Shown piece by piece: positions 16,454 to 56,066 of a stretch of DNA of 64,000 nucleotides (its first letter is position 1; each line of letters opens with the position of its first letter). Below the pieces are notes generated by a model. That model was not told the DNA's origin, ran no database searches, and saw nothing but the letters and a program-made list of their open reading frames with translations. Where the stretch lies: the NCBI RefSeq assembly GCF_003334385.1, contig NZ_QOWN01000017.1; one strand, 5' to 3'. The position numbers and the translations under genes were made by a program. Source of the stretch: Escherichia coli. Its GTDB lineage: Bacteria > Pseudomonadota > Gammaproteobacteria > Enterobacterales > Enterobacteriaceae.

Positions 16454-17395
16454 ATGCGCGAAAAGGATTATGTCGTAATTATAGGTTCGGCGAATATTGA
16501 TGTCGCCGGATATTCACATGAATCATTAAATTATGCGGATTCAAATCCAGGTAAAATAAAATTTACGCCTGGTGGAGTAGGGCGCAATATTGCACAAAAC
16601 CTGGCGTTGCTGGGTAACAAAGCCTGGCTACTGAGCGCCGTAGGCAGTGATTTTTATGGTCAATCGCTGCTAACGCAAACCAATCAATCTGGCGTTTATG
16701 TCGATAAATGCCTGATTGTGCCGGGAGAAAATACGTCGAGTTATTTATCATTACTCGATAATACCGGTGAAATGCTGGTTGCTATAAATGACATGAATAT
16801 TAGCAACGCTATTACAGCTGAATATCTCGCACAGCACGGTGAATTTATTCAGAGGGCAAAGGTCATTGTCGCGGACTGTAATATCAGTGAAGAGGCACTG
16901 GCATGGATTCTGGATAATGCCGCCAACGTACCCGTATTTGTCGATCCGGTTTCGGCATGGAAATGTGTCAAAGTGCGCGACCGTCTAAATCAGATCCACA
17001 CTCTCAAGCCAAACCGCCTTGAAGCGGAAACCCTGAGTGGGATTGCGCTGTCAGGGCGTGAAGATGTGGCAAAAGTTGCTGCCTGGTTCCATCAACATGG
17101 CCTGAACCGACTGGTATTGAGCATGGGCGGCGACGGCGTTTATTACAGCGATATCAGCGGTGAAAGTGGCTGGTCTGCGCCGATCAAAACCAATGTTATT
17201 AATGTTACCGGAGCGGGCGATGCCATGATGGCGGGACTTGCTTCGTGTTGGGTAGACGGAATGCCGTTTGCCGAATCTGTTCGTTTCGCACAGGGATGTT
17301 CGTCAATGGCGCTCTCCTGTGAATACACCAATAACCCCGATTTATCGATTGCCAACGTTATATCGTTAGTGGAGAACGCAGAATGTCTGAATTAA
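16454..17395 (+). CDS. psuK: pseudouridine kinase PsuK (PfkB family)
   Basis: 313 aa ORF, ribokinase/PfkB fold motifs (GAGDAMMAG); synteny with psuG, psuT. Confidence 0.85.
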   Translation: MREKDYVVIIGSANIDVAGYSHESLNYADSNPGKIKFTPGGVGRNIAQNLALLGNKAWLLSAVGSDFYGQSLLTQTNQSGVYVDKCLIVPGENTSSYLSLLDNTGEMLVAINDMNISNAITAEYLAQHGEFIQRAKVIVADCNISEEALAWILDNAANVPVFVDPVSAWKCVKVRDRLNQIHTLKPNRLEAETLSGIALSGREDVAKVAAWFHQHGLNRLVLSMGGDGVYYSDISGESGWSAPIKTNVINVTGAGDAMMAGLASCWVDGMPFAESVRFAQGCSSMALSCEYTNNPDLSIANVISLVENAECLN

Positions 17396-18327
17396 AAATT
17401 TCCCCTGAATTATTACAAATTTCCCCGGAAGTGCAGGACGCTTTAAAAAACAAAAAACCGGTTGTGGCGCTGGAATCGACCATTATTTCTCACGGGATGC
17501 CGTTCCCACAAAATGCCCAGACCGCAATTGAAGTTGAAGAAACTATTCGTAAACAGGGCGCTGTACCTGCCACGATCGCCATTATTGGCGGCGTGATGAA
17601 AGTGGGGTTAAGCAAAGAAGAAATTGAATTACTGGGTCGTGAAGGGCATAACGTGACCAAAGTTAGTCGTCGCGATTTACCTTTTGTTGTTGCCGCCGGA
17701 AAAAATGGCGCAACCACTGTGGCTTCAACGATGATTATTGCGGCGCTTGCCGGAATTAAAGTATTTGCCACCGGGGGAATTGGTGGTGTGCATCGCGGGG
17801 CGGAACATACCTTCGATATTTCTGCCGATTTGCAAGAACTGGCAAATACTAATGTCACCGTTGTTTGTGCCGGGGCGAAATCTATTCTCGATTTAGGATT
17901 AACCACTGAGTATTTAGAAACCTTCGGTGTGCCGTTAATTGGCTATCAGACTAAAGCGCTGCCTGCGTTTTTCTGCCGCACCAGCCCGTTTGACGTCAGC
18001 ATTCGTCTCGACAGCGCCAGCGAAATTGCCCGTGCAATGGCGGTGAAATGGCAAAGCGGTCTGAACGGTGGCCTCGTGGTAGCGAACCCGATCCCGGAAC
18101 AGTTTGCTATGCCGGAACACACTATCAATGCGGCGATCGATCAGGCGGTAGCTGAAGCTGAAGCTGAAGCTCAGGGAGTCATTGGTAAAGAAAGTACGCC
18201 ATTCCTGCTGGCGCGCGTTGCTGAACTGACCGGCGGTGACAGCCTGAAATCCAACATCCAGCTGGTGTTCAACAACGCCATTCTGGCGAGCGAAATTGCC
18301 AAAGAATATCAGCGTCTCGCGGGTTAA
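17383..18327 (+). CDS. psuG: pseudouridine-5'-phosphate glycosidase PsuG
   Basis: 314 aa ORF overlapping psuK by 13 nt; indigoidine synthase A-like family; contains (gctgaa)x3 in-frame repeat at 18151-18168. Confidence 0.85.
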   Translation: MSELKISPELLQISPEVQDALKNKKPVVALESTIISHGMPFPQNAQTAIEVEETIRKQGAVPATIAIIGGVMKVGLSKEEIELLGREGHNVTKVSRRDLPFVVAAGKNGATTVASTMIIAALAGIKVFATGGIGGVHRGAEHTFDISADLQELANTNVTVVCAGAKSILDLGLTTEYLETFGVPLIGYQTKALPAFFCRTSPFDVSIRLDSASEIARAMAVKWQSGLNGGLVVANPIPEQFAMPEHTINAAIDQAVAEAEAEAQGVIGKESTPFLLARVAELTGGDSLKSNIQLVFNNAILASEIAKEYQRLAG

Positions 18328-18420
18328 TTTCTGACGGGCAGAAAGCCGTCGCCCGTACTCATCAAGCATACCAAAACCTGGCGCTGACGCCGGGTTTACC
18401 GGCATGAAGGGAAAATCATT

Positions 18421-19671
18421 ATGGATATAATGAGAAGTGTTGTGGGGATGGTGGTGTTACTGGCAATAGCATTTCTGTTGTCAGTGAATAAAAAGAGCAT
18501 CAGTTTGCGCACGGTTGGAGCCGCACTGCTGCTGCAAATCGCTATTGGTGGCATCATGCTCTACTTCCCACCGGGAAAATGGGCAGTAGAACAGGCGGCA
18601 TTAGGCGTTCATAAAGTGATGTCTTACAGTGATGCCGGTAGCGCCTTCATTTTTGGTTCGCTGGTTGGGCCGAAAATGGATGTCCTGTTTGACGGTGCGG
18701 GTTTTATCTTCGCCTTTCGCGTACTTCCGGCGATTATTTTCGTTACTGCGCTCATCAGTCTGCTGTACTACATTGGCGTGATGGGGCTGCTGATTCGCAT
18801 CCTTGGCAGCATTTTCCAGAAAGCCCTCAACATCAGCAAAATCGAATCTTTTGTTGCGGTTACTACTATTTTCCTCGGGCAAAATGAGATCCCGGCGATC
18901 GTTAAACCGTTTATCGATCGCATGAATCGCAACGAGTTGTTTACCGCAATTTGTCGCGGGATGGCGTCCATTGCTGGTTCGATGATGATTGGTTATGCCG
19001 GAATGGGCGTACCAATTGACTACCTGTTAGCGGCATCGCTGATGGCGATCCCTGGCGGGATTTTGTTTGCACGTATTTTTAGCCCGGCAACCGAGCCTTC
19101 GCAGGTCACATTTGAAAATCTGTCGTTCAGCGAAACGCCGCCAAAAAGCTTTATCGAAGCGGCGGCGAGCGGTGCGATGACCGGGCTAAAAATCGCCGCT
19201 GGTGTGGCGACGGTGGTAATGGCGTTTGTCGCAATTATTGCGCTGATCAACGGCATTATCGGCGGAATTGGCGGCTGGTTTGGTTTCGCCAATGCCTCTC
19301 TGGAAAGTATTTTTGGCTATGTGCTGGCACCGCTGGCGTGGATCATGGGTGTGGACTGGAGTGATGCCAATCTTGCGGGTAGCCTGATTGGGCAGAAACT
19401 GGCGATTAACGAATTCGTCGCTTACCTGAGTTTCTCCCCATACCTGCAAACGGGCGGCACGCTGGAAGTGAAAACCATTGCGATTATCTCCTTTGCGCTT
19501 TGTGGTTTTGCTAACTTTGGTTCTATCGGTGTTGTCGTTGGCGCATTTTCGGCTATTTCGCCAAAACGCGCGCCGGAAATCGCCCAGCTTGGTTTACGGG
19601 CGCTGGCAGCAGCAACGCTTTCCAACCTGATGAGTGCGACTATTGCCGGGTTCTTTATTGGTCTGGCGTAA
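18421..19671 (+). CDS. psuT: concentrative nucleoside (CNT family) transporter, PsuT
   Basis: 416 aa polytopic membrane protein, paralog of the ORF at 21611..22861; directly downstream of psuG. Confidence 0.75.
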   Translation: MDIMRSVVGMVVLLAIAFLLSVNKKSISLRTVGAALLLQIAIGGIMLYFPPGKWAVEQAALGVHKVMSYSDAGSAFIFGSLVGPKMDVLFDGAGFIFAFRVLPAIIFVTALISLLYYIGVMGLLIRILGSIFQKALNISKIESFVAVTTIFLGQNEIPAIVKPFIDRMNRNELFTAICRGMASIAGSMMIGYAGMGVPIDYLLAASLMAIPGGILFARIFSPATEPSQVTFENLSFSETPPKSFIEAAASGAMTGLKIAAGVATVVMAFVAIIALINGIIGGIGGWFGFANASLESIFGYVLAPLAWIMGVDWSDANLAGSLIGQKLAINEFVAYLSFSPYLQTGGTLEVKTIAIISFALCGFANFGSIGVVVGAFSAISPKRAPEIAQLGLRALAAATLSNLMSATIAGFFIGLA

Positions 19672-28986: not shown

Positions 28987-30979
28987 ATGTTTAGGTTGAA
29001 CCCTTTCGTACGGGTCGGGCTGTGTTTGTCCGCTATTTCTTGTGCATGGCCTGTGTTAGCGGTCGATGATGATGGCGAAACGATGGTTGTCACTGCATCT
29101 TCCGTGGAACAAAATCTTAAAGATGCACCTGCCAGTATCAGCGTCATTACCCAGGAAGACCTGCAGCGAAAACCGGTACAGAATCTGAAGGATGTCCTCA
29201 AAGAAGTGCCTGGCGTACAACTGACGAACGAAGGGGATAACCGTAAGGGCGTTAGTATTCGTGGTCTGGACAGCAGCTATACCCTGATTCTCGTCGACGG
29301 TAAACGCGTGAACTCCCGCAATGCCGTCTTCCGCCACAATGATTTCGATCTGAACTGGATCCCGGTCGATTCCATCGAACGTATTGAAGTGGTCCGTGGC
29401 CCGATGTCGTCGCTGTACGGTTCCGATGCGCTCGGCGGTGTAGTGAATATCATCACCAAAAAAATCGGTCAGAAATGGTCGGGTACCGTTACCGTCGATA
29501 CCACCATTCAGGAACATCGCGATCGCGGTGACACCTATAACGGTCAGTTCTTTACCAGTGGACCATTAATTGATGGTGTGCTGGGAATGAAAGCTTACGG
29601 CAGCCTGGCAAAACGTGAAAAGGATGACCCGCAAAACTCAACGACCACCGATACCGGAGAAACGCCGCGTATTGAAGGATTCTCCAGCCGCGACGGCAAT
29701 GTCGAATTTGCCTGGACACCGAATCAAAATCACGATTTTACTGCCGGATACGGTTTCGACCGTCAGGATCGTGATTCCGACTCGCTGGACAAAAACCGCC
29801 TGGAACGCCAGAACTACTCCGTCAGCCATAATGGGCGTTGGGATTACGGCACCAGCGAACTGAAATACTACGGTGAGAAAGTCGAGAACAAAAACCCTGG
29901 CAACAGCAGCCCGATAACTTCCGAAAGCAATACGGTCGACGGCAAATACACGTTGCCGCTGACGGCGATTAATCAGTTTCTCACGGTTGGCGGTGAATGG
30001 CGTCACGACAAACTTAGCGATGCGGTGAACCTGACCGGGGGAACCAGCTCCAAAACGTCTGCCAGCCAGTACGCGCTGTTTGTGGAAGATGAATGGCGGA
30101 TCTTCGAGCCGCTGGCGCTGACGACCGGCGTGCGTATGGACGATCACGAAACCTACGGTGAACACTGGAGTCCGCGTGCCTACCTGGTTTTATAACGCCA
30201 CCGACACCGTAACGGTGAAAGGGGGCTGGGCGACGGCATTTAAAGCACCTTCTCTGTTGCAACTTAGCCCTGACTGGACGAGCAATTCCTGCCGTGGCGC
30301 ATGTAAGATTGTGGGTAGCCCGGATCTGAAACCAGAAACCAGCGAAAGTTGGGAGCTGGGGCTTTACTACATGGGTGAAGAAGGCTGGCTGGAAGGGGTT
30401 GAATCCAGCGTTACCGTTTTCCGTAACGATGTGAAAGATCGTATCAGCATCAGCCGTACGTCTGACGTCAACGCTGCACCGGGCTACCAAAACTTTGTTG
30501 GTTTTGAGACGGGCGCTAACGGACGGCGCATACCGGTATTTAGCTACTACAACGTTAACAAAGCTCGTATTCAGGGCGTGGAAACCGAACTGAAAATTCC
30601 GTTCAACGATGAATGGAAACTGTCGATCAACTACACCTACAACGATGGTCGTGATGTCAGCAACGGCGAAAACAAACCGCTATCCGATCTGCCGTTCCAT
30701 ACTGCTAACGGTACGCTGGACTGGAAACCGCTGGCGCTGGAAGACTGGTCATTCTATGTTTCTGGGCACTATACCGGGCAGAAACGCGCCGACAGCGCGA
30801 CGGCTAAAACACCGGGCGGTTATACCATCTGGAATACCGGCGCGGCCTGGCAGGTGACTAAAGACGTCAAACTGCGCGCAGGCGTGCTGAACCTTGGCGA
30901 CAAGGATCTCAGTCGTGACGACTACAGCTATAACGAAGACGGACGTCGTTACTTTATGGCAGTGGATTATCGCTTCTGA
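28987..30979 (+). pseudogene. cirA: catecholate siderophore / colicin I receptor CirA disrupted by a +1 frameshift (T-run 30188-30191)
   Basis: Two overlapping track ORFs (28987..30195, 402 aa; 30158..30979, 273 aa) that together give a TonB-dependent receptor once one T is removed from the TTTT run at 30188-30191; total span 1993 nt = 664 codons + 1 nt. Confidence 0.8.
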
Positions 30980-53573: not shown

Positions 53574-53768
53574 TTTCCACTCCTTGTGGTGGCGAAAAAA
53601 TATCACAAACTAGAATAGCGCCTTGTATAACAATTCAGCGAGTGAATATTTTGAAAATTCAGACAATAAACTGAGCATTCTTTTTCTCTCTCCATCATGC
53701 TTATGGCAAACTACGGTTTTTGCACCATTTTCGCTGCCACGTCGGGCAACAAAGGAAGAAAAATCCAT

Positions 53769-56066
53769 ATGAAATGGCTATGTTCAGTAGGAATCGCGGT
53801 GAGTCTGGCCCTGCAGCCAGCACTGGCGGATGATTTATTCGGCAACCATCCATTAACGCCCGAAGCGCGGGATGCGTTCGTCACCGAACTGCTTAAGAAA
53901 ATGACAGTTGATGAGAAAATTGGTCAGCTGCGCTTAATCAGCGTCGGCCCGGATAACCCGAAAGAGGCGATCCGCGAGATGATCAAAGACGGTCAGGTTG
54001 GGGCGATTTTCAACACCGTAACCCGTCAGGATATCCGCGCCATGCAGGATCAGGTGATGGAATTAAGCCGCCTGAAAATTCCTCTTTTCTTTGCTTACGA
54101 CGTGCTGCACGGTCAGCGCACGGTGTTCCCGATTAGCCTCGGTCTGGCCTCGTCTTTTAACCTCGATGCAGTGAAAACGGTCGGACGTGTCTCTGCTTAT
54201 GAAGCGGCAGATGATGGCCTGAATATGACCTGGGCACCGATGGTCGATGTCTCGCGCGATCCGCGCTGGGGACGTGCTTCCGAAGGTTTTGGCGAAGATA
54301 CGTATCTCACCTCAACAATGGGTAAAACCATGGTGGAAGCGATGCAGGGTAAAAGCCCGGCAGATCGCTACTCGGTGATGACCAGCGTCAAACACTTTGC
54401 CGCATACGGCGCGGTAGAAGGCGGTAAAGAGTACAACACCGTCGATATGAGTCCGCAGCGCCTGTTTAATGATTATATGCCGCCGTACAAAGCGGGGCTG
54501 GACGCAGGCAGCGGCGCGGTGATGGTGGCGCTGAACTCGCTGAACGGCACGCCAGCCACCTCCGATTCCTGGCTGCTGAAAGATGTTCTGCGCGACCAGT
54601 GGGGCTTTAAAGGCATCACCGTTTCCGATCACGGTGCAATCAAAGAGCTGATTAAACATGGCACGGCGGCAGACCCGGAAGATGCGGTGCGCGTGGCGCT
54701 GAAATCCGGAATCAACATGAGCATGAGCGACGAGTACTACTCGAAGTATCTGCCTGGGTTGATTAAATCCGGCAAAGTGACGATGGCAGAGCTGGACGAT
54801 GCTGCCCGCCATGTACTGAACGTTAAATATGATATGGGGTTGTTTAACGACCCATACAGCCATTTGGGGCCGAAAGAGTCTGACCCGGTGGATACCAATG
54901 CCGAAAGCCGCCTGCACCGTAAAGAAGCGCGTGAAGTGGCGCGCGAAAGCTTGGTGTTGCTGAAAAACCGTCTCGAAACGTTACCGCTGAAAAAATCGGC
55001 CACCATTGCGGTGGTTGGGCCACTGGCGGACAGTAAACGTGACGTGATGGGCAGCTGGTCCGCAGCCGGTGTTGCCGATCAATCCGTGACCGTACTGACC
55101 GGGATTAAAAATGCCGTCGGTGAAAACGGTAAAGTGCTGTATGCCAAAGGGGCGAACGTTACCAGTGACAAAGGCATTATCGATTTCCTGAATCAGTATG
55201 AAGAAGCGGTCAAAGTCGATCCGCGTTCGCCGCAAGAGATGATTGATGAAGCGGTGCAGACGGCGAAACAATCTGATGTGGTGGTGGCTGTAGTCGGTGA
55301 AGCACAGGGGATGGCGCACGAAGCCTCCAGCCGGACCGATATCACTATTCCGCAAAGCCAACGTGACTTGATTGCGGCGCTGAAAGCCACCGGTAAACCG
55401 CTGGTGCTGGTGCTGATGAACGGGCGTCCGCTGGCGCTGGTGAAAGAAGATCAGCAGGCTGATGCGATTCTGGAAACCTGGTTTGCGGGGACTGAAGGCG
55501 GTAATGCAATTGCCGATGTATTGTTTGGCGATTACAACCCGTCCGGCAAGCTGCCAATGTCCTTCCCGCGTTCTGTCGGGCAGATCCCGGTGTACTACAG
55601 CCATCTGAATACCGGTCGCCCGTATAATGCCGACAAGCCGAACAAATACACTTCGCGTTATTTTGATGAAGCTAACGGGGCGTTGTATCCGTTCGGCTAT
55701 GGGCTGAGCTACACCACTTTCACCGTCTCTGATGTGAAACTTTCTGCGCCGACCATGAAGCGTGACGGCAAAGTGACTGCCAGCGTGCAGGTGACGAACA
55801 CCGGTAAGCGCGAGGGTGCCACGGTAGTGCAGATGTACTTGCAGGATGTGACGGCTTCCATGAGTCGCCCTGTGAAACAGCTGAAAGGCTTTGAGAAAAT
55901 CACCCTGAAACCGGGCGAAACTCAGACTGTCAGCTTCCCGATCGATATTGAGGCGCTGAAGTTCTGGAATCAACAGATGAAATATGACGCCGAGCCTGGC
56001 AAGTTCAATGTCTTTATCGGCACTGATTCCGCACGCGTTAAGAAAGGCGAGTTTGAGTTGCTGTAA
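53769..56066 (+). CDS. bglX: periplasmic beta-glucosidase BglX (GH3)
   Basis: Track ORF 53697..56066; signal peptide MKWLCSVGIAVSLALQPALA; glycoside hydrolase family 3 domains; 765 aa. Confidence 0.85.
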   Translation: MKWLCSVGIAVSLALQPALADDLFGNHPLTPEARDAFVTELLKKMTVDEKIGQLRLISVGPDNPKEAIREMIKDGQVGAIFNTVTRQDIRAMQDQVMELSRLKIPLFFAYDVLHGQRTVFPISLGLASSFNLDAVKTVGRVSAYEAADDGLNMTWAPMVDVSRDPRWGRASEGFGEDTYLTSTMGKTMVEAMQGKSPADRYSVMTSVKHFAAYGAVEGGKEYNTVDMSPQRLFNDYMPPYKAGLDAGSGAVMVALNSLNGTPATSDSWLLKDVLRDQWGFKGITVSDHGAIKELIKHGTAADPEDAVRVALKSGINMSMSDEYYSKYLPGLIKSGKVTMAELDDAARHVLNVKYDMGLFNDPYSHLGPKESDPVDTNAESRLHRKEAREVARESLVLLKNRLETLPLKKSATIAVVGPLADSKRDVMGSWSAAGVADQSVTVLTGIKNAVGENGKVLYAKGANVTSDKGIIDFLNQYEEAVKVDPRSPQEMIDEAVQTAKQSDVVVAVVGEAQGMAHEASSRTDITIPQSQRDLIAALKATGKPLVLVLMNGRPLALVKEDQQADAILETWFAGTEGGNAIADVLFGDYNPSGKLPMSFPRSVGQIPVYYSHLNTGRPYNADKPNKYTSRYFDEANGALYPFGYGLSYTTFTVSDVKLSAPTMKRDGKVTASVQVTNTGKREGATVVQMYLQDVTASMSRPVKQLKGFEKITLKPGETQTVSFPIDIEALKFWNQQMKYDAEPGKFNVFIGTDSARVKKGEFELL

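What the first reader, a model, noticed from the sequence alone, without database searches (positions are those of the whole stretch)
18151..18171. In-frame hexanucleotide repeat (gctgaa)x3 within psuG
Encodes AEAEAEA near the PsuG C-terminus. The ORF is 314 aa, whereas I recall 312 aa for K-12 PsuG, consistent with one extra repeat unit. This is a slippage-prone microsatellite inside a coding region.
Basis: partly seen in the sequence, partly recalled or inferred. Interest (0 to 1): 0.2.

Follow-up and report, generated by a model that had tools for sequence, protein, structure and literature searches.

The report
Six-base repeat length variant in psuG
This E. coli pseudouridine-breakdown gene carries one extra copy of a six-base repeat, adding two amino acids to a surface hairpin of the enzyme; it is a real but rare and ordinary copy-number variant made by replication slippage.

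Summary
(GCTGAA)x3+GCT lies at 18151-18171 (Tandem Repeats Finder (TRF): AGCTGA x3.7, 18150-18171). It is in frame in psuG (17383-18327, 314 aa) and encodes AEAEAEA at residues 257-263.

K-12 psuG is 939 nt / 312 aa with two units. The window differs from it by this 6-bp insertion and one SNP (V220A).

The tract is a small polymorphic coding microsatellite.
- **Complete genomes (5,426):** 7 records carry three units and 25 carry one. None carry four or zero.
- **Larger protein collection:** all of 0, 1, 2, 3 and 4 units exist (308-316 aa).
- **Recurrence:** each variant sits on a haplotype otherwise identical to a two-unit allele. That implies at least 8 separate slippage events.
- **Control:** no variant was found in about 1,900 genomes whose tract is interrupted (B2 type, GCTGAAGCCGAAGAA).

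The two extra residues fall at the tip of the alpha11/alpha12 "lid" hairpin. AlphaFold models them as a longer turn with the fold unchanged.

This is not phase variation, because every copy number keeps the reading frame. The effect on function is untested and probably small. The finding is ordinary and of low interest.

The parts
18150..18171 (+). Perfect hexanucleotide tandem repeat: AGCTGA x3.67, or (GCTGAA)x3+GCT from 18151. It encodes AEAEAEA (residues 257-263). One unit (6 bp) is extra relative to K-12.
17383..18327 (+). psuG (yeiN) coding sequence, 314 aa, pseudouridine-5'-phosphate glycosidase. The protein is identical to RefSeq WP_087894452.1.
18115..18165 (+). Codons 245-261, predicted helix alpha11, the first helix of the lid hairpin. 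The repeat forms its C-terminal end.
   Evidence: AlphaFold model. Helix assignment by alignment to AtPUMY (8K05) and PMC10761123.
18166..18183 (+). Codons 262-267 (EAQGVI), the predicted turn at the hairpin tip. It is 6 residues here and 4 (QGVI) in the two-unit parent.
18184..18228 (+). Codons 268-282, predicted helix alpha12 of the lid. It contains the invariant Thr272 (18196-18198; K-12 Thr270, AtPUMY Thr289).
18041..18041 (+). The only SNP between the window psuG and K-12 psuG: C here (Ala220), T in K-12 (Val220). The other strains examined share the window's C.
16454..17395 (+). psuK (pseudouridine kinase). It is intact, identical in protein to K-12, and overlaps the psuG start by 13 nt.
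18421..19671 (+). psuT (NupC-family nucleoside transporter). It is intact, with two private substitutions.

Best explanation
The tract is a short coding microsatellite in psuG. In E. coli lineages of the K-12, B1 and O157 types, point substitutions turned an ancestral K/A-E-A-E-E codon run into a perfect AGCTGAAGCTGAAGC tract of 2.67 units. During replication the nascent and template strands occasionally realign by one 6-bp unit, adding or removing one Ala-Glu pair. The window carries the +1 product: three units, 314 aa. Because the unit is two codons, the reading frame and expression are untouched. The only consequence is that the distal end of helix alpha11, at the tip of the alpha11/alpha12 lid hairpin over the active site, becomes two residues longer. 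The change is most likely nearly neutral. Shown: the repeat, the extra unit relative to K-12, the 0-4 unit series, its recurrence on different haplotypes, and its position in the structure. Inferred: slippage as the molecular event, and near-neutrality of the variant.
For: The window equals K-12 plus 6 bp and one SNP. At the DNA level there is a series of 0, 1, 2, 3 and 4 units, and every variant differs from a two-unit allele of the same haplotype by whole units only. The three-unit allele occurs on K-12-like, E94 and O157-type haplotypes. The one-unit allele occurs on K-12-like, O55:H7 and FDAARGOS_943 haplotypes. The four-unit allele has 0 SNPs against the E94 three-unit allele. The zero-unit allele sits on the FDAARGOS_943 haplotype. 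Exact-protein counts in the large collection are: 308 aa on 3 contigs, 310 aa on at least 1000, 312 aa on at least 1000, 314 aa on 63, and 316 aa on 1. Among complete genomes, 7 records have three units, 25 have one, and none have four or zero. No +/-6 variant occurs in 1,291 B2-type genomes with the interrupted tract, nor in the GCCGAAGCCGAAGAG background. For structure, alignment to AtPUMY places the repeat at the end of alpha11. AlphaFold gives the same fold for the three-unit and two-unit proteins (mean pLDDT 94.0 and 95.0), with the extra residues in a longer turn. Some homologs naturally have hairpins 2-3 residues shorter or 2 residues longer.
Against: No mutation rate was measured, so slippage is inferred from the pattern alone. 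The contrast between perfect and interrupted tracts rests on about 8 inferred events, not on thousands of independent genomes. By my rough estimate P is about 0.03 if events are spread in proportion to genome numbers. Neutrality is not shown. The PIP-to-TPF spacing equals the K-12 value in 83 of 103 diverse homologs. The lid is needed for catalysis, since AtPUMY T289A in alpha12 is inactive (PMC10761123). AlphaFold confidence at the tip falls from 88 to 70. Several carriers of variant alleles have a damaged psu operon, so relaxed selection is possible.
Confidence: 0.85

Rival explanations
1. Single origin plus recombination. The three-unit allele arose once and was moved between lineages by homologous recombination, rather than arising repeatedly.
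For: Within phylogroup A, the window, the 2017.xxCC strains and Z1324SEC0014 share an identical psuG block. Their flanks differ by about 160 SNPs over 35 kb, and the haplotype boundary lies only about 460 bp upstream of psuG. That mosaic pattern is typical of recombination.
Against: The E94-type and O157-type three-unit alleles differ from the window allele by 22-23 SNPs across the gene, including 3 SNPs within 12 nt downstream of the tract. Each is identical (0 SNPs) to a two-unit or four-unit allele of its own haplotype. A single origin would need recombination breakpoints inside the 22-nt tract each time.
Confidence: 0.05
2. Functional tuning. Changing the number of Ala-Glu pairs alters lid length and dynamics, and so changes the kinetics of pseudouridine-phosphate cleavage or synthesis. 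The variants are kept by selection.
For: The repeat lies in the alpha11/alpha12 lid, whose opening and closing is required for catalysis (PMC10761123). The hairpin length is conserved in most homologs. The 310-aa allele is common, on at least 1000 contigs.
Against: There are no functional data. The three-unit allele is rare: 7 of about 5,400 genomes and 63 contigs. The variant residues are Ala and Glu at the solvent-exposed tip, far in sequence from the catalytic residues E31, K166 and D149. The variants show no obvious association with host or source.
Confidence: 0.07
3. Decay under relaxed selection. The length variants are mildly or fully inactivating and persist because the psu operon is dispensable in those lineages.
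For: E92/E94 (three units) have a frameshifted psuK. 2017.01.04CC (three units) lost psuK and the psuG 5' end to IS1. FDAARGOS_943 (one unit) has psuG cut by IS5. Strain 58-3 has IS1 in psuG. A pan-genome paper lists psuG and psuT among 'extended-core' genes, not strict core genes (PMC12595684).
Against: In the window, psuK, psuG and psuT are all intact. The same holds in 2017.04.03CC, Z1324SEC0014, HS30-1 and O55:H7. Homologs with equally short or long hairpins exist. The predicted fold is unchanged.
Confidence: 0.1
4. Sequencing or assembly artefact in the window.
For: None specific. The reads cannot be inspected.
Against: The identical 314-aa protein occurs on 63 contigs from several sources. 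The identical 101-nt DNA occurs in five complete-genome records from different studies. A 6-bp whole-unit indel is not a typical sequencing error.
Confidence: 0.01

Closest known systems
E. coli K-12 PsuG/YeiN (312 aa; PDB 4GIJ, 4GIK, 4GIL, 4GIM; RefSeq WP_001292460.1)
   Same: Same gene, same psuK-psuG-psuT operon, and 656 bits over the full length. All catalytic positions are present.
   Different: K-12 has two repeat units (AEAEA) and Val220. The window has three units (AEAEAEA) and Ala220.
Other length alleles of the same tract: 310 aa (one unit, WP_016230878.1 and O55:H7 WP_001292457.1), 308 aa (zero units), 316 aa (four units, EFJ2950141.1)
   Same: Same tract, same whole-unit steps, and otherwise identical haplotypes.
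   Different: Copy number and frequency. The one-unit allele is much commoner than the window's three-unit allele: at least 1000 contigs against 63, and 25 complete-genome records against 7.
Simple-sequence-repeat contingency loci of Haemophilus, Neisseria and Campylobacter (slipped-strand mispairing; from general knowledge)
   Same: The presumed mutational mechanism: strand slippage in a tandem repeat inside a gene.
   Different: Contingency loci have long tracts whose unit is not a multiple of three, or which lie in promoters, so copy changes switch surface or restriction-modification genes on and off. Here the unit is 6 bp, the tract has at most 4 units, the gene encodes a cytoplasmic catabolic enzyme, and the frame is always kept.
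Low-copy 6-bp VNTR markers used for E. coli MLVA typing (from memory; not checked here)
   Same: Hexanucleotide unit and copy number varying between strains.
   Different: Typing loci are chosen for high diversity. This tract has the two-unit state in about 99% of genomes, so it has little typing value. I found no paper describing it.
Arabidopsis PUMY (PDB 8K05-8K07), alpha11/alpha12 lid
   Same: Homologous fold. The repeat aligns with the C-terminal end of alpha11, just before the turn and the Thr289-containing alpha12.
   Different: AtPUMY, like K-12, has the standard hairpin length and aligns with a 2-residue gap against the window protein.

Membership tests
PsuG / Indigoidine_A family (pseudouridine-5'-phosphate glycosidase) | Full-length match to Pfam PF04227 | tested here: met
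   PF04227, E 1.7e-130, model positions 1-291 of 291, query residues 16-308.
PsuG / Indigoidine_A family (pseudouridine-5'-phosphate glycosidase) | Near identity to the biochemically and structurally characterised E. coli enzyme | tested here: met
   4GIJ, 656 bits. The only differences are V220A and the AE insertion.
PsuG / Indigoidine_A family (pseudouridine-5'-phosphate glycosidase) | Catalytic and ligand residues present: Glu31, Lys93, Thr130, Asp149, Lys166, lid Thr (K-12 270), Asn (K-12 289) | tested here: met
   One search lists E31, K93, D149 and T272 as invariant, and T130, K166 and N291 as nearly invariant, numbered in the window protein. Their roles are taken from PMC10761123.
PsuG / Indigoidine_A family (pseudouridine-5'-phosphate glycosidase) | Operon with pseudouridine kinase and nucleoside transporter | tested here: met
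   (psuK equivalog NF007355 at 714 bits; psuT TIGR00804). The gene order is as in K-12.
PsuG / Indigoidine_A family (pseudouridine-5'-phosphate glycosidase) | Enzymatic activity of the 314-aa allele | not testable with these tools
   This needs an enzyme assay or a growth test.
Coding microsatellite / VNTR made by slipped-strand mispairing | Perfect head-to-tail repeat, unit of 6 bp or less, at least 3 copies | tested here: met
Coding microsatellite / VNTR made by slipped-strand mispairing | Strains differ by whole units with otherwise identical flanks | tested here: met
   0, 1, 2, 3 and 4 units.
Coding microsatellite / VNTR made by slipped-strand mispairing | Independent recurrence on different haplotypes | tested here: met
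   three haplotypes each for the one-unit and three-unit alleles, with stepwise four-unit and zero-unit alleles.
Coding microsatellite / VNTR made by slipped-strand mispairing | Variation absent where the repeat is interrupted | tested here: met
   (1,291 B2-type genomes, none). Statistical weight is limited because few independent events are involved.
Coding microsatellite / VNTR made by slipped-strand mispairing | Measured instability in culture | not testable with these tools
   This needs a fluctuation test or deep amplicon sequencing.
Phase-variable contingency locus | A copy-number change shifts the reading frame or the promoter spacing | tested here: not met
   The unit is 6 bp and lies inside the coding sequence. 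All alleles from 308 to 316 aa are open.
Phase-variable contingency locus | Long, hypermutable tract | tested here: not met
   At most 4 units were seen. About 99% of genomes share one state.
Phase-variable contingency locus | The gene encodes a surface, host-interaction or restriction-modification function | tested here: not met
   The gene encodes a cytoplasmic nucleotide-catabolic enzyme.

The most novel reading that the evidence does not exclude
The number of Ala-Glu pairs at the tip of the PsuG lid hairpin tunes lid opening and closing, and so tunes the rate or the direction (cleavage versus synthesis) of the pseudouridine-phosphate reaction. The recurrent one-unit and three-unit alleles would then be selected natural kinetic variants. 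Such variants could also be of use for enzymatic pseudouridine production.
Probability: 0.07. Interest if true: 0.3.

Novelty: new member of a known kind. Interest (0 to 1): 0.12.

Why it matters
It matters little. It is a clean, small example of in-frame microsatellite slippage in a housekeeping-type enzyme gene. A natural control comes with it: lineages whose tract is interrupted show no length variants. It also provides a ready-made series of PsuG lid-length variants (308-316 aa). These could be compared kinetically, which has some relevance because YeiN/PsuG is used in enzymatic pseudouridine synthesis (PMC7722734 and PMC10116470, titles seen). It is of no use as a switch and of little use as a typing marker.

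Tried and rejected
- **NCBIfam:** it returned no family for PsuG at E<=1e-10, so membership rests on Pfam and PDB.
- **Primary structure paper:** the E. coli paper (Huang et al. 2012, PMC3526674) is not held. Helix assignments therefore come from the Arabidopsis paper, an alignment and AlphaFold.
- **Literature:** searches for this polymorphism found nothing relevant.
- **Census method:** the tool gives only identity bands and up to 60 rows. I used synthetic 83-107-nt queries for each copy number and background. Counts by band include partial matches, so I relied on the top-ranked full-coverage rows. The totals per background (about 3,470 perfect-tract, 1,291 B2-type, about 640 GCCGAA-type) are approximate.
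- **Anchor regular expression:** it failed on 46 of 149 homologs, which were fragments or had different motifs. The 83/103 figure is therefore for the subset that matched.
- **Source genome:** I looked for it among the complete genomes carrying three units. None is the source, since all differ by more than 150 SNPs over 35 kb.
- **Readings rejected:**
  - Phase variation, because every allele is in frame.
  - The antisense ORF 17935..18405 (156 aa, 'SFSFSFS'), which is only the reverse reading of psuG.
  - Artefact, because the allele is seen in many independent assemblies.

Full report

Yes. The + strand at 18150-18171 reads AGCTGAAGCTGAAGCTGAAGCT. That is gctgaa three times from 18151, followed by gct. 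TRF reports period 6, 3.7 copies and 100% matches.

The tract lies in the ORF 17383..18327 (+), which is 314 aa. Position 18151 starts codon 257, so the tract encodes A257-EAEAE-A263.

It is more than chance. It is the only tract of period 4-12 with at least 3.5 copies in the window. None of 300 Markov simulations produced a period-6 tract of 22 nt or more. A 16-nt tract like the K-12 one is expected only about 0.06 times per window.

**2. What is the gene?**

The ORF is psuG (yeiN), pseudouridine-5'-phosphate glycosidase.
- It matches Pfam PF04227 end to end.
- It matches the E. coli crystal structure 4GIJ at 656 bits. The only differences are V220A and a two-residue insertion.
- It sits between psuK and psuT, as in K-12.

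Over 35 kb the window is 99.94% identical to MG1655, with 15 SNPs and 2 indels. It is not MG1655, and it is none of the complete genomes that share the allele.

**3. Comparison with K-12 and other strains**

MG1655 psuG is 939 nt / 312 aa and carries AGCTGAAGCTGAAGCT, which is two units and encodes AEAEA.

*Complete genomes.* Of 5,426 complete E. coli genomes, 5,407 have psuG, and the sampled rows are almost all 939 nt. I searched with synthetic queries for each copy number.

| Units | Complete-genome records |
|---|---|
| 3 | 7: three 2017.xxCC human strains from Viet Nam (one deposited twice), a swine strain, and two near-identical bovine strains, E92 and E94 |
| 1 | 25 |
| 4 | 0 |
| 0 | 0 |

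*Larger collection.* Exact-sequence look-ups in a collection of about 15 billion proteins gave these counts for the K-12-like protein background.

| Protein length | Units | Contigs |
|---|---|---|
| 308 aa | 0 | 3 |
| 310 aa | 1 | at least 1000 |
| 312 aa | 2 | at least 1000 |
| 314 aa (the window protein) | 3 | 63 |
| 316 aa | 4 | 1 |

In the O157-type background, the one-unit allele is on 41 contigs and the three-unit allele on 2.

*DNA of the variants.* DNA retrieved for these proteins shows whole-unit differences only.

**4. Recurrence**

Each variant allele is identical, apart from whole units, to a two-unit allele of its own haplotype.
- The window and HS30-1 (one unit) have 0 SNPs between them and 1 SNP to K-12.
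- The O157-type three-unit allele has 0 SNPs to the O157 two-unit allele.
- O55:H7 (one unit) has 2 SNPs to O157.
- The four-unit allele has 0 SNPs to the E94 three-unit allele.
- The zero-unit allele matches the FDAARGOS_943 one-unit haplotype.

These haplotypes differ from one another by 13-24 SNPs across the gene, including SNPs 3-12 nt downstream of the tract. That implies at least eight separate gain or loss events.

Within phylogroup A, the three-unit allele sits on an identical psuG block flanked by different haplotypes. Identity by descent with recombination cannot be excluded there.

**5. A natural control**

Enterobacterial relatives read KEAEE at this site. B2-type E. coli read AEAEE, encoded by the interrupted GCTGAAGCCGAAGAA. 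A third type has GCCGAAGCCGAAGAG.

No +6 or -6 allele exists in 1,291 B2-type genomes or in the third type. The corresponding proteins are also absent from the large collection.

All 32 variant genomes belong to the roughly 3,470 genomes with the perfect tract. This fits slippage that depends on the repeat. The weight is limited, because it rests on about eight events; my rough estimate is P about 0.03.

**6. Where it lies in the protein**

Alignment to Arabidopsis PUMY, together with its published description, places the repeat at the C-terminal end of helix alpha11. Alpha11 and alpha12 form a protruding antiparallel hairpin that acts as a lid over the active site and closes on ligand binding. 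Thr289 in alpha12 (Thr272 here) contacts the phosphate, and the T289A mutant is inactive (PMC10761123).

AlphaFold models were compared for the three-unit protein and its two-unit parent.

| Feature | Three units (314 aa) | Two units (312 aa) |
|---|---|---|
| Mean pLDDT | 94.0 | 95.0 |
| Helix alpha11 | 245-261 | 245-261 |
| Turn at the tip | 6 residues (EAQGVI) | 4 residues (QGVI) |
| pLDDT of residues 261-270 | 70 | 88 |

AlphaFold is a weak judge of mutational effects, so this shows only where the residues go.

**7. Is the hairpin length constrained?**

K-12 PsuG, AtPUMY and AlnA all align with a two-residue gap against the window protein.

Among 103 diverse homologs with recognisable anchors, 83 have the K-12 spacing of 38 residues from PIP to TPF. 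The rest range from 32 to 51. In a 40-sequence alignment, two homologs are 2 residues shorter in the same place, matching the one-unit allele. One is 3 residues shorter. One has 2 extra residues in the turn.

The length is therefore usually conserved but not fixed.

**8. Mechanism and verdict**

The best explanation is slipped-strand mispairing in a short perfect hexanucleotide tract. It gives an in-frame gain of one Ala-Glu pair at the exposed tip of the lid hairpin, probably with little effect.

It is not phase variation. The unit is two codons, the tract is short, and all alleles remain open.

The alternatives are less supported:
- a single origin spread by recombination;
- adaptive tuning of the lid;
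- decay under relaxed selection, since several carriers have a broken psu operon;
- a sequencing or assembly artefact.

I found no paper describing this polymorphism, but the allele is already in RefSeq as WP_087894452.1. It is a new instance of a well-known kind of variation and is of low interest.

Noticed in passing
window 30185-30188 (cirA, ORFs 28987..30195 and 30158..30979): The window has TTTT where K-12 has TTT. This 1-bp insertion splits cirA, the catecholate siderophore / colicin I receptor, into two ORFs of 402 and 273 aa, so cirA appears frameshifted in this strain.
   Followed up: partly
window 18955 and 19078 (psuT, 18421..19671): Two private non-synonymous changes in psuT, S179R and L220F, relative to K-12. 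All six other strains compared carry the K-12 bases.
   Followed up: partly
window 885-34019: Of the 15 SNPs between the window and MG1655 over 35 kb, 9 are T in the window and C in K-12, a transition-heavy spectrum. The window is a very close relative of K-12 but not MG1655 itself.
   Followed up: no
window 18094-18100 and 18112-18118: CCGGAAC occurs as a direct repeat 18 nt apart inside psuG. A 306-aa E. coli allele (for example in APEC O78) lacks exactly the six residues between the repeats (PIPEHTIN instead of PIPEQFAMPEHTIN). A 326-aa allele with a 14-aa duplication, GGLNGGLVVANPIP, also exists.
   Followed up: partly
loci L002 (E94), L014 (2017.01.04CC), L009 (FDAARGOS_943); strain 58-3 (H10): The psu operon is damaged in several strains: psuK is frameshifted in E94, IS1 has removed psuK and the psuG 5' end in 2017.01.04CC, IS5 has truncated psuG in FDAARGOS_943, and IS1 sits in psuG in strain 58-3.
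   Followed up: no
window 55400-55415 (bglX-like ORF 53697..56066): This is the second-longest hexanucleotide tract in the window, GCTGGT x2.7, encoding LVLVL. It was not compared across strains.
   Followed up: no
window 17391-17430: An imperfect 21-nt tandem duplication lies at the 5' end of psuG (ELKISPELLQISPE), scored by TRF at 89% matches.
   Followed up: no
E. coli genome collection: Six psuG matches of the B2 type lie on records labelled as plasmids. They were not inspected.
   Followed up: no
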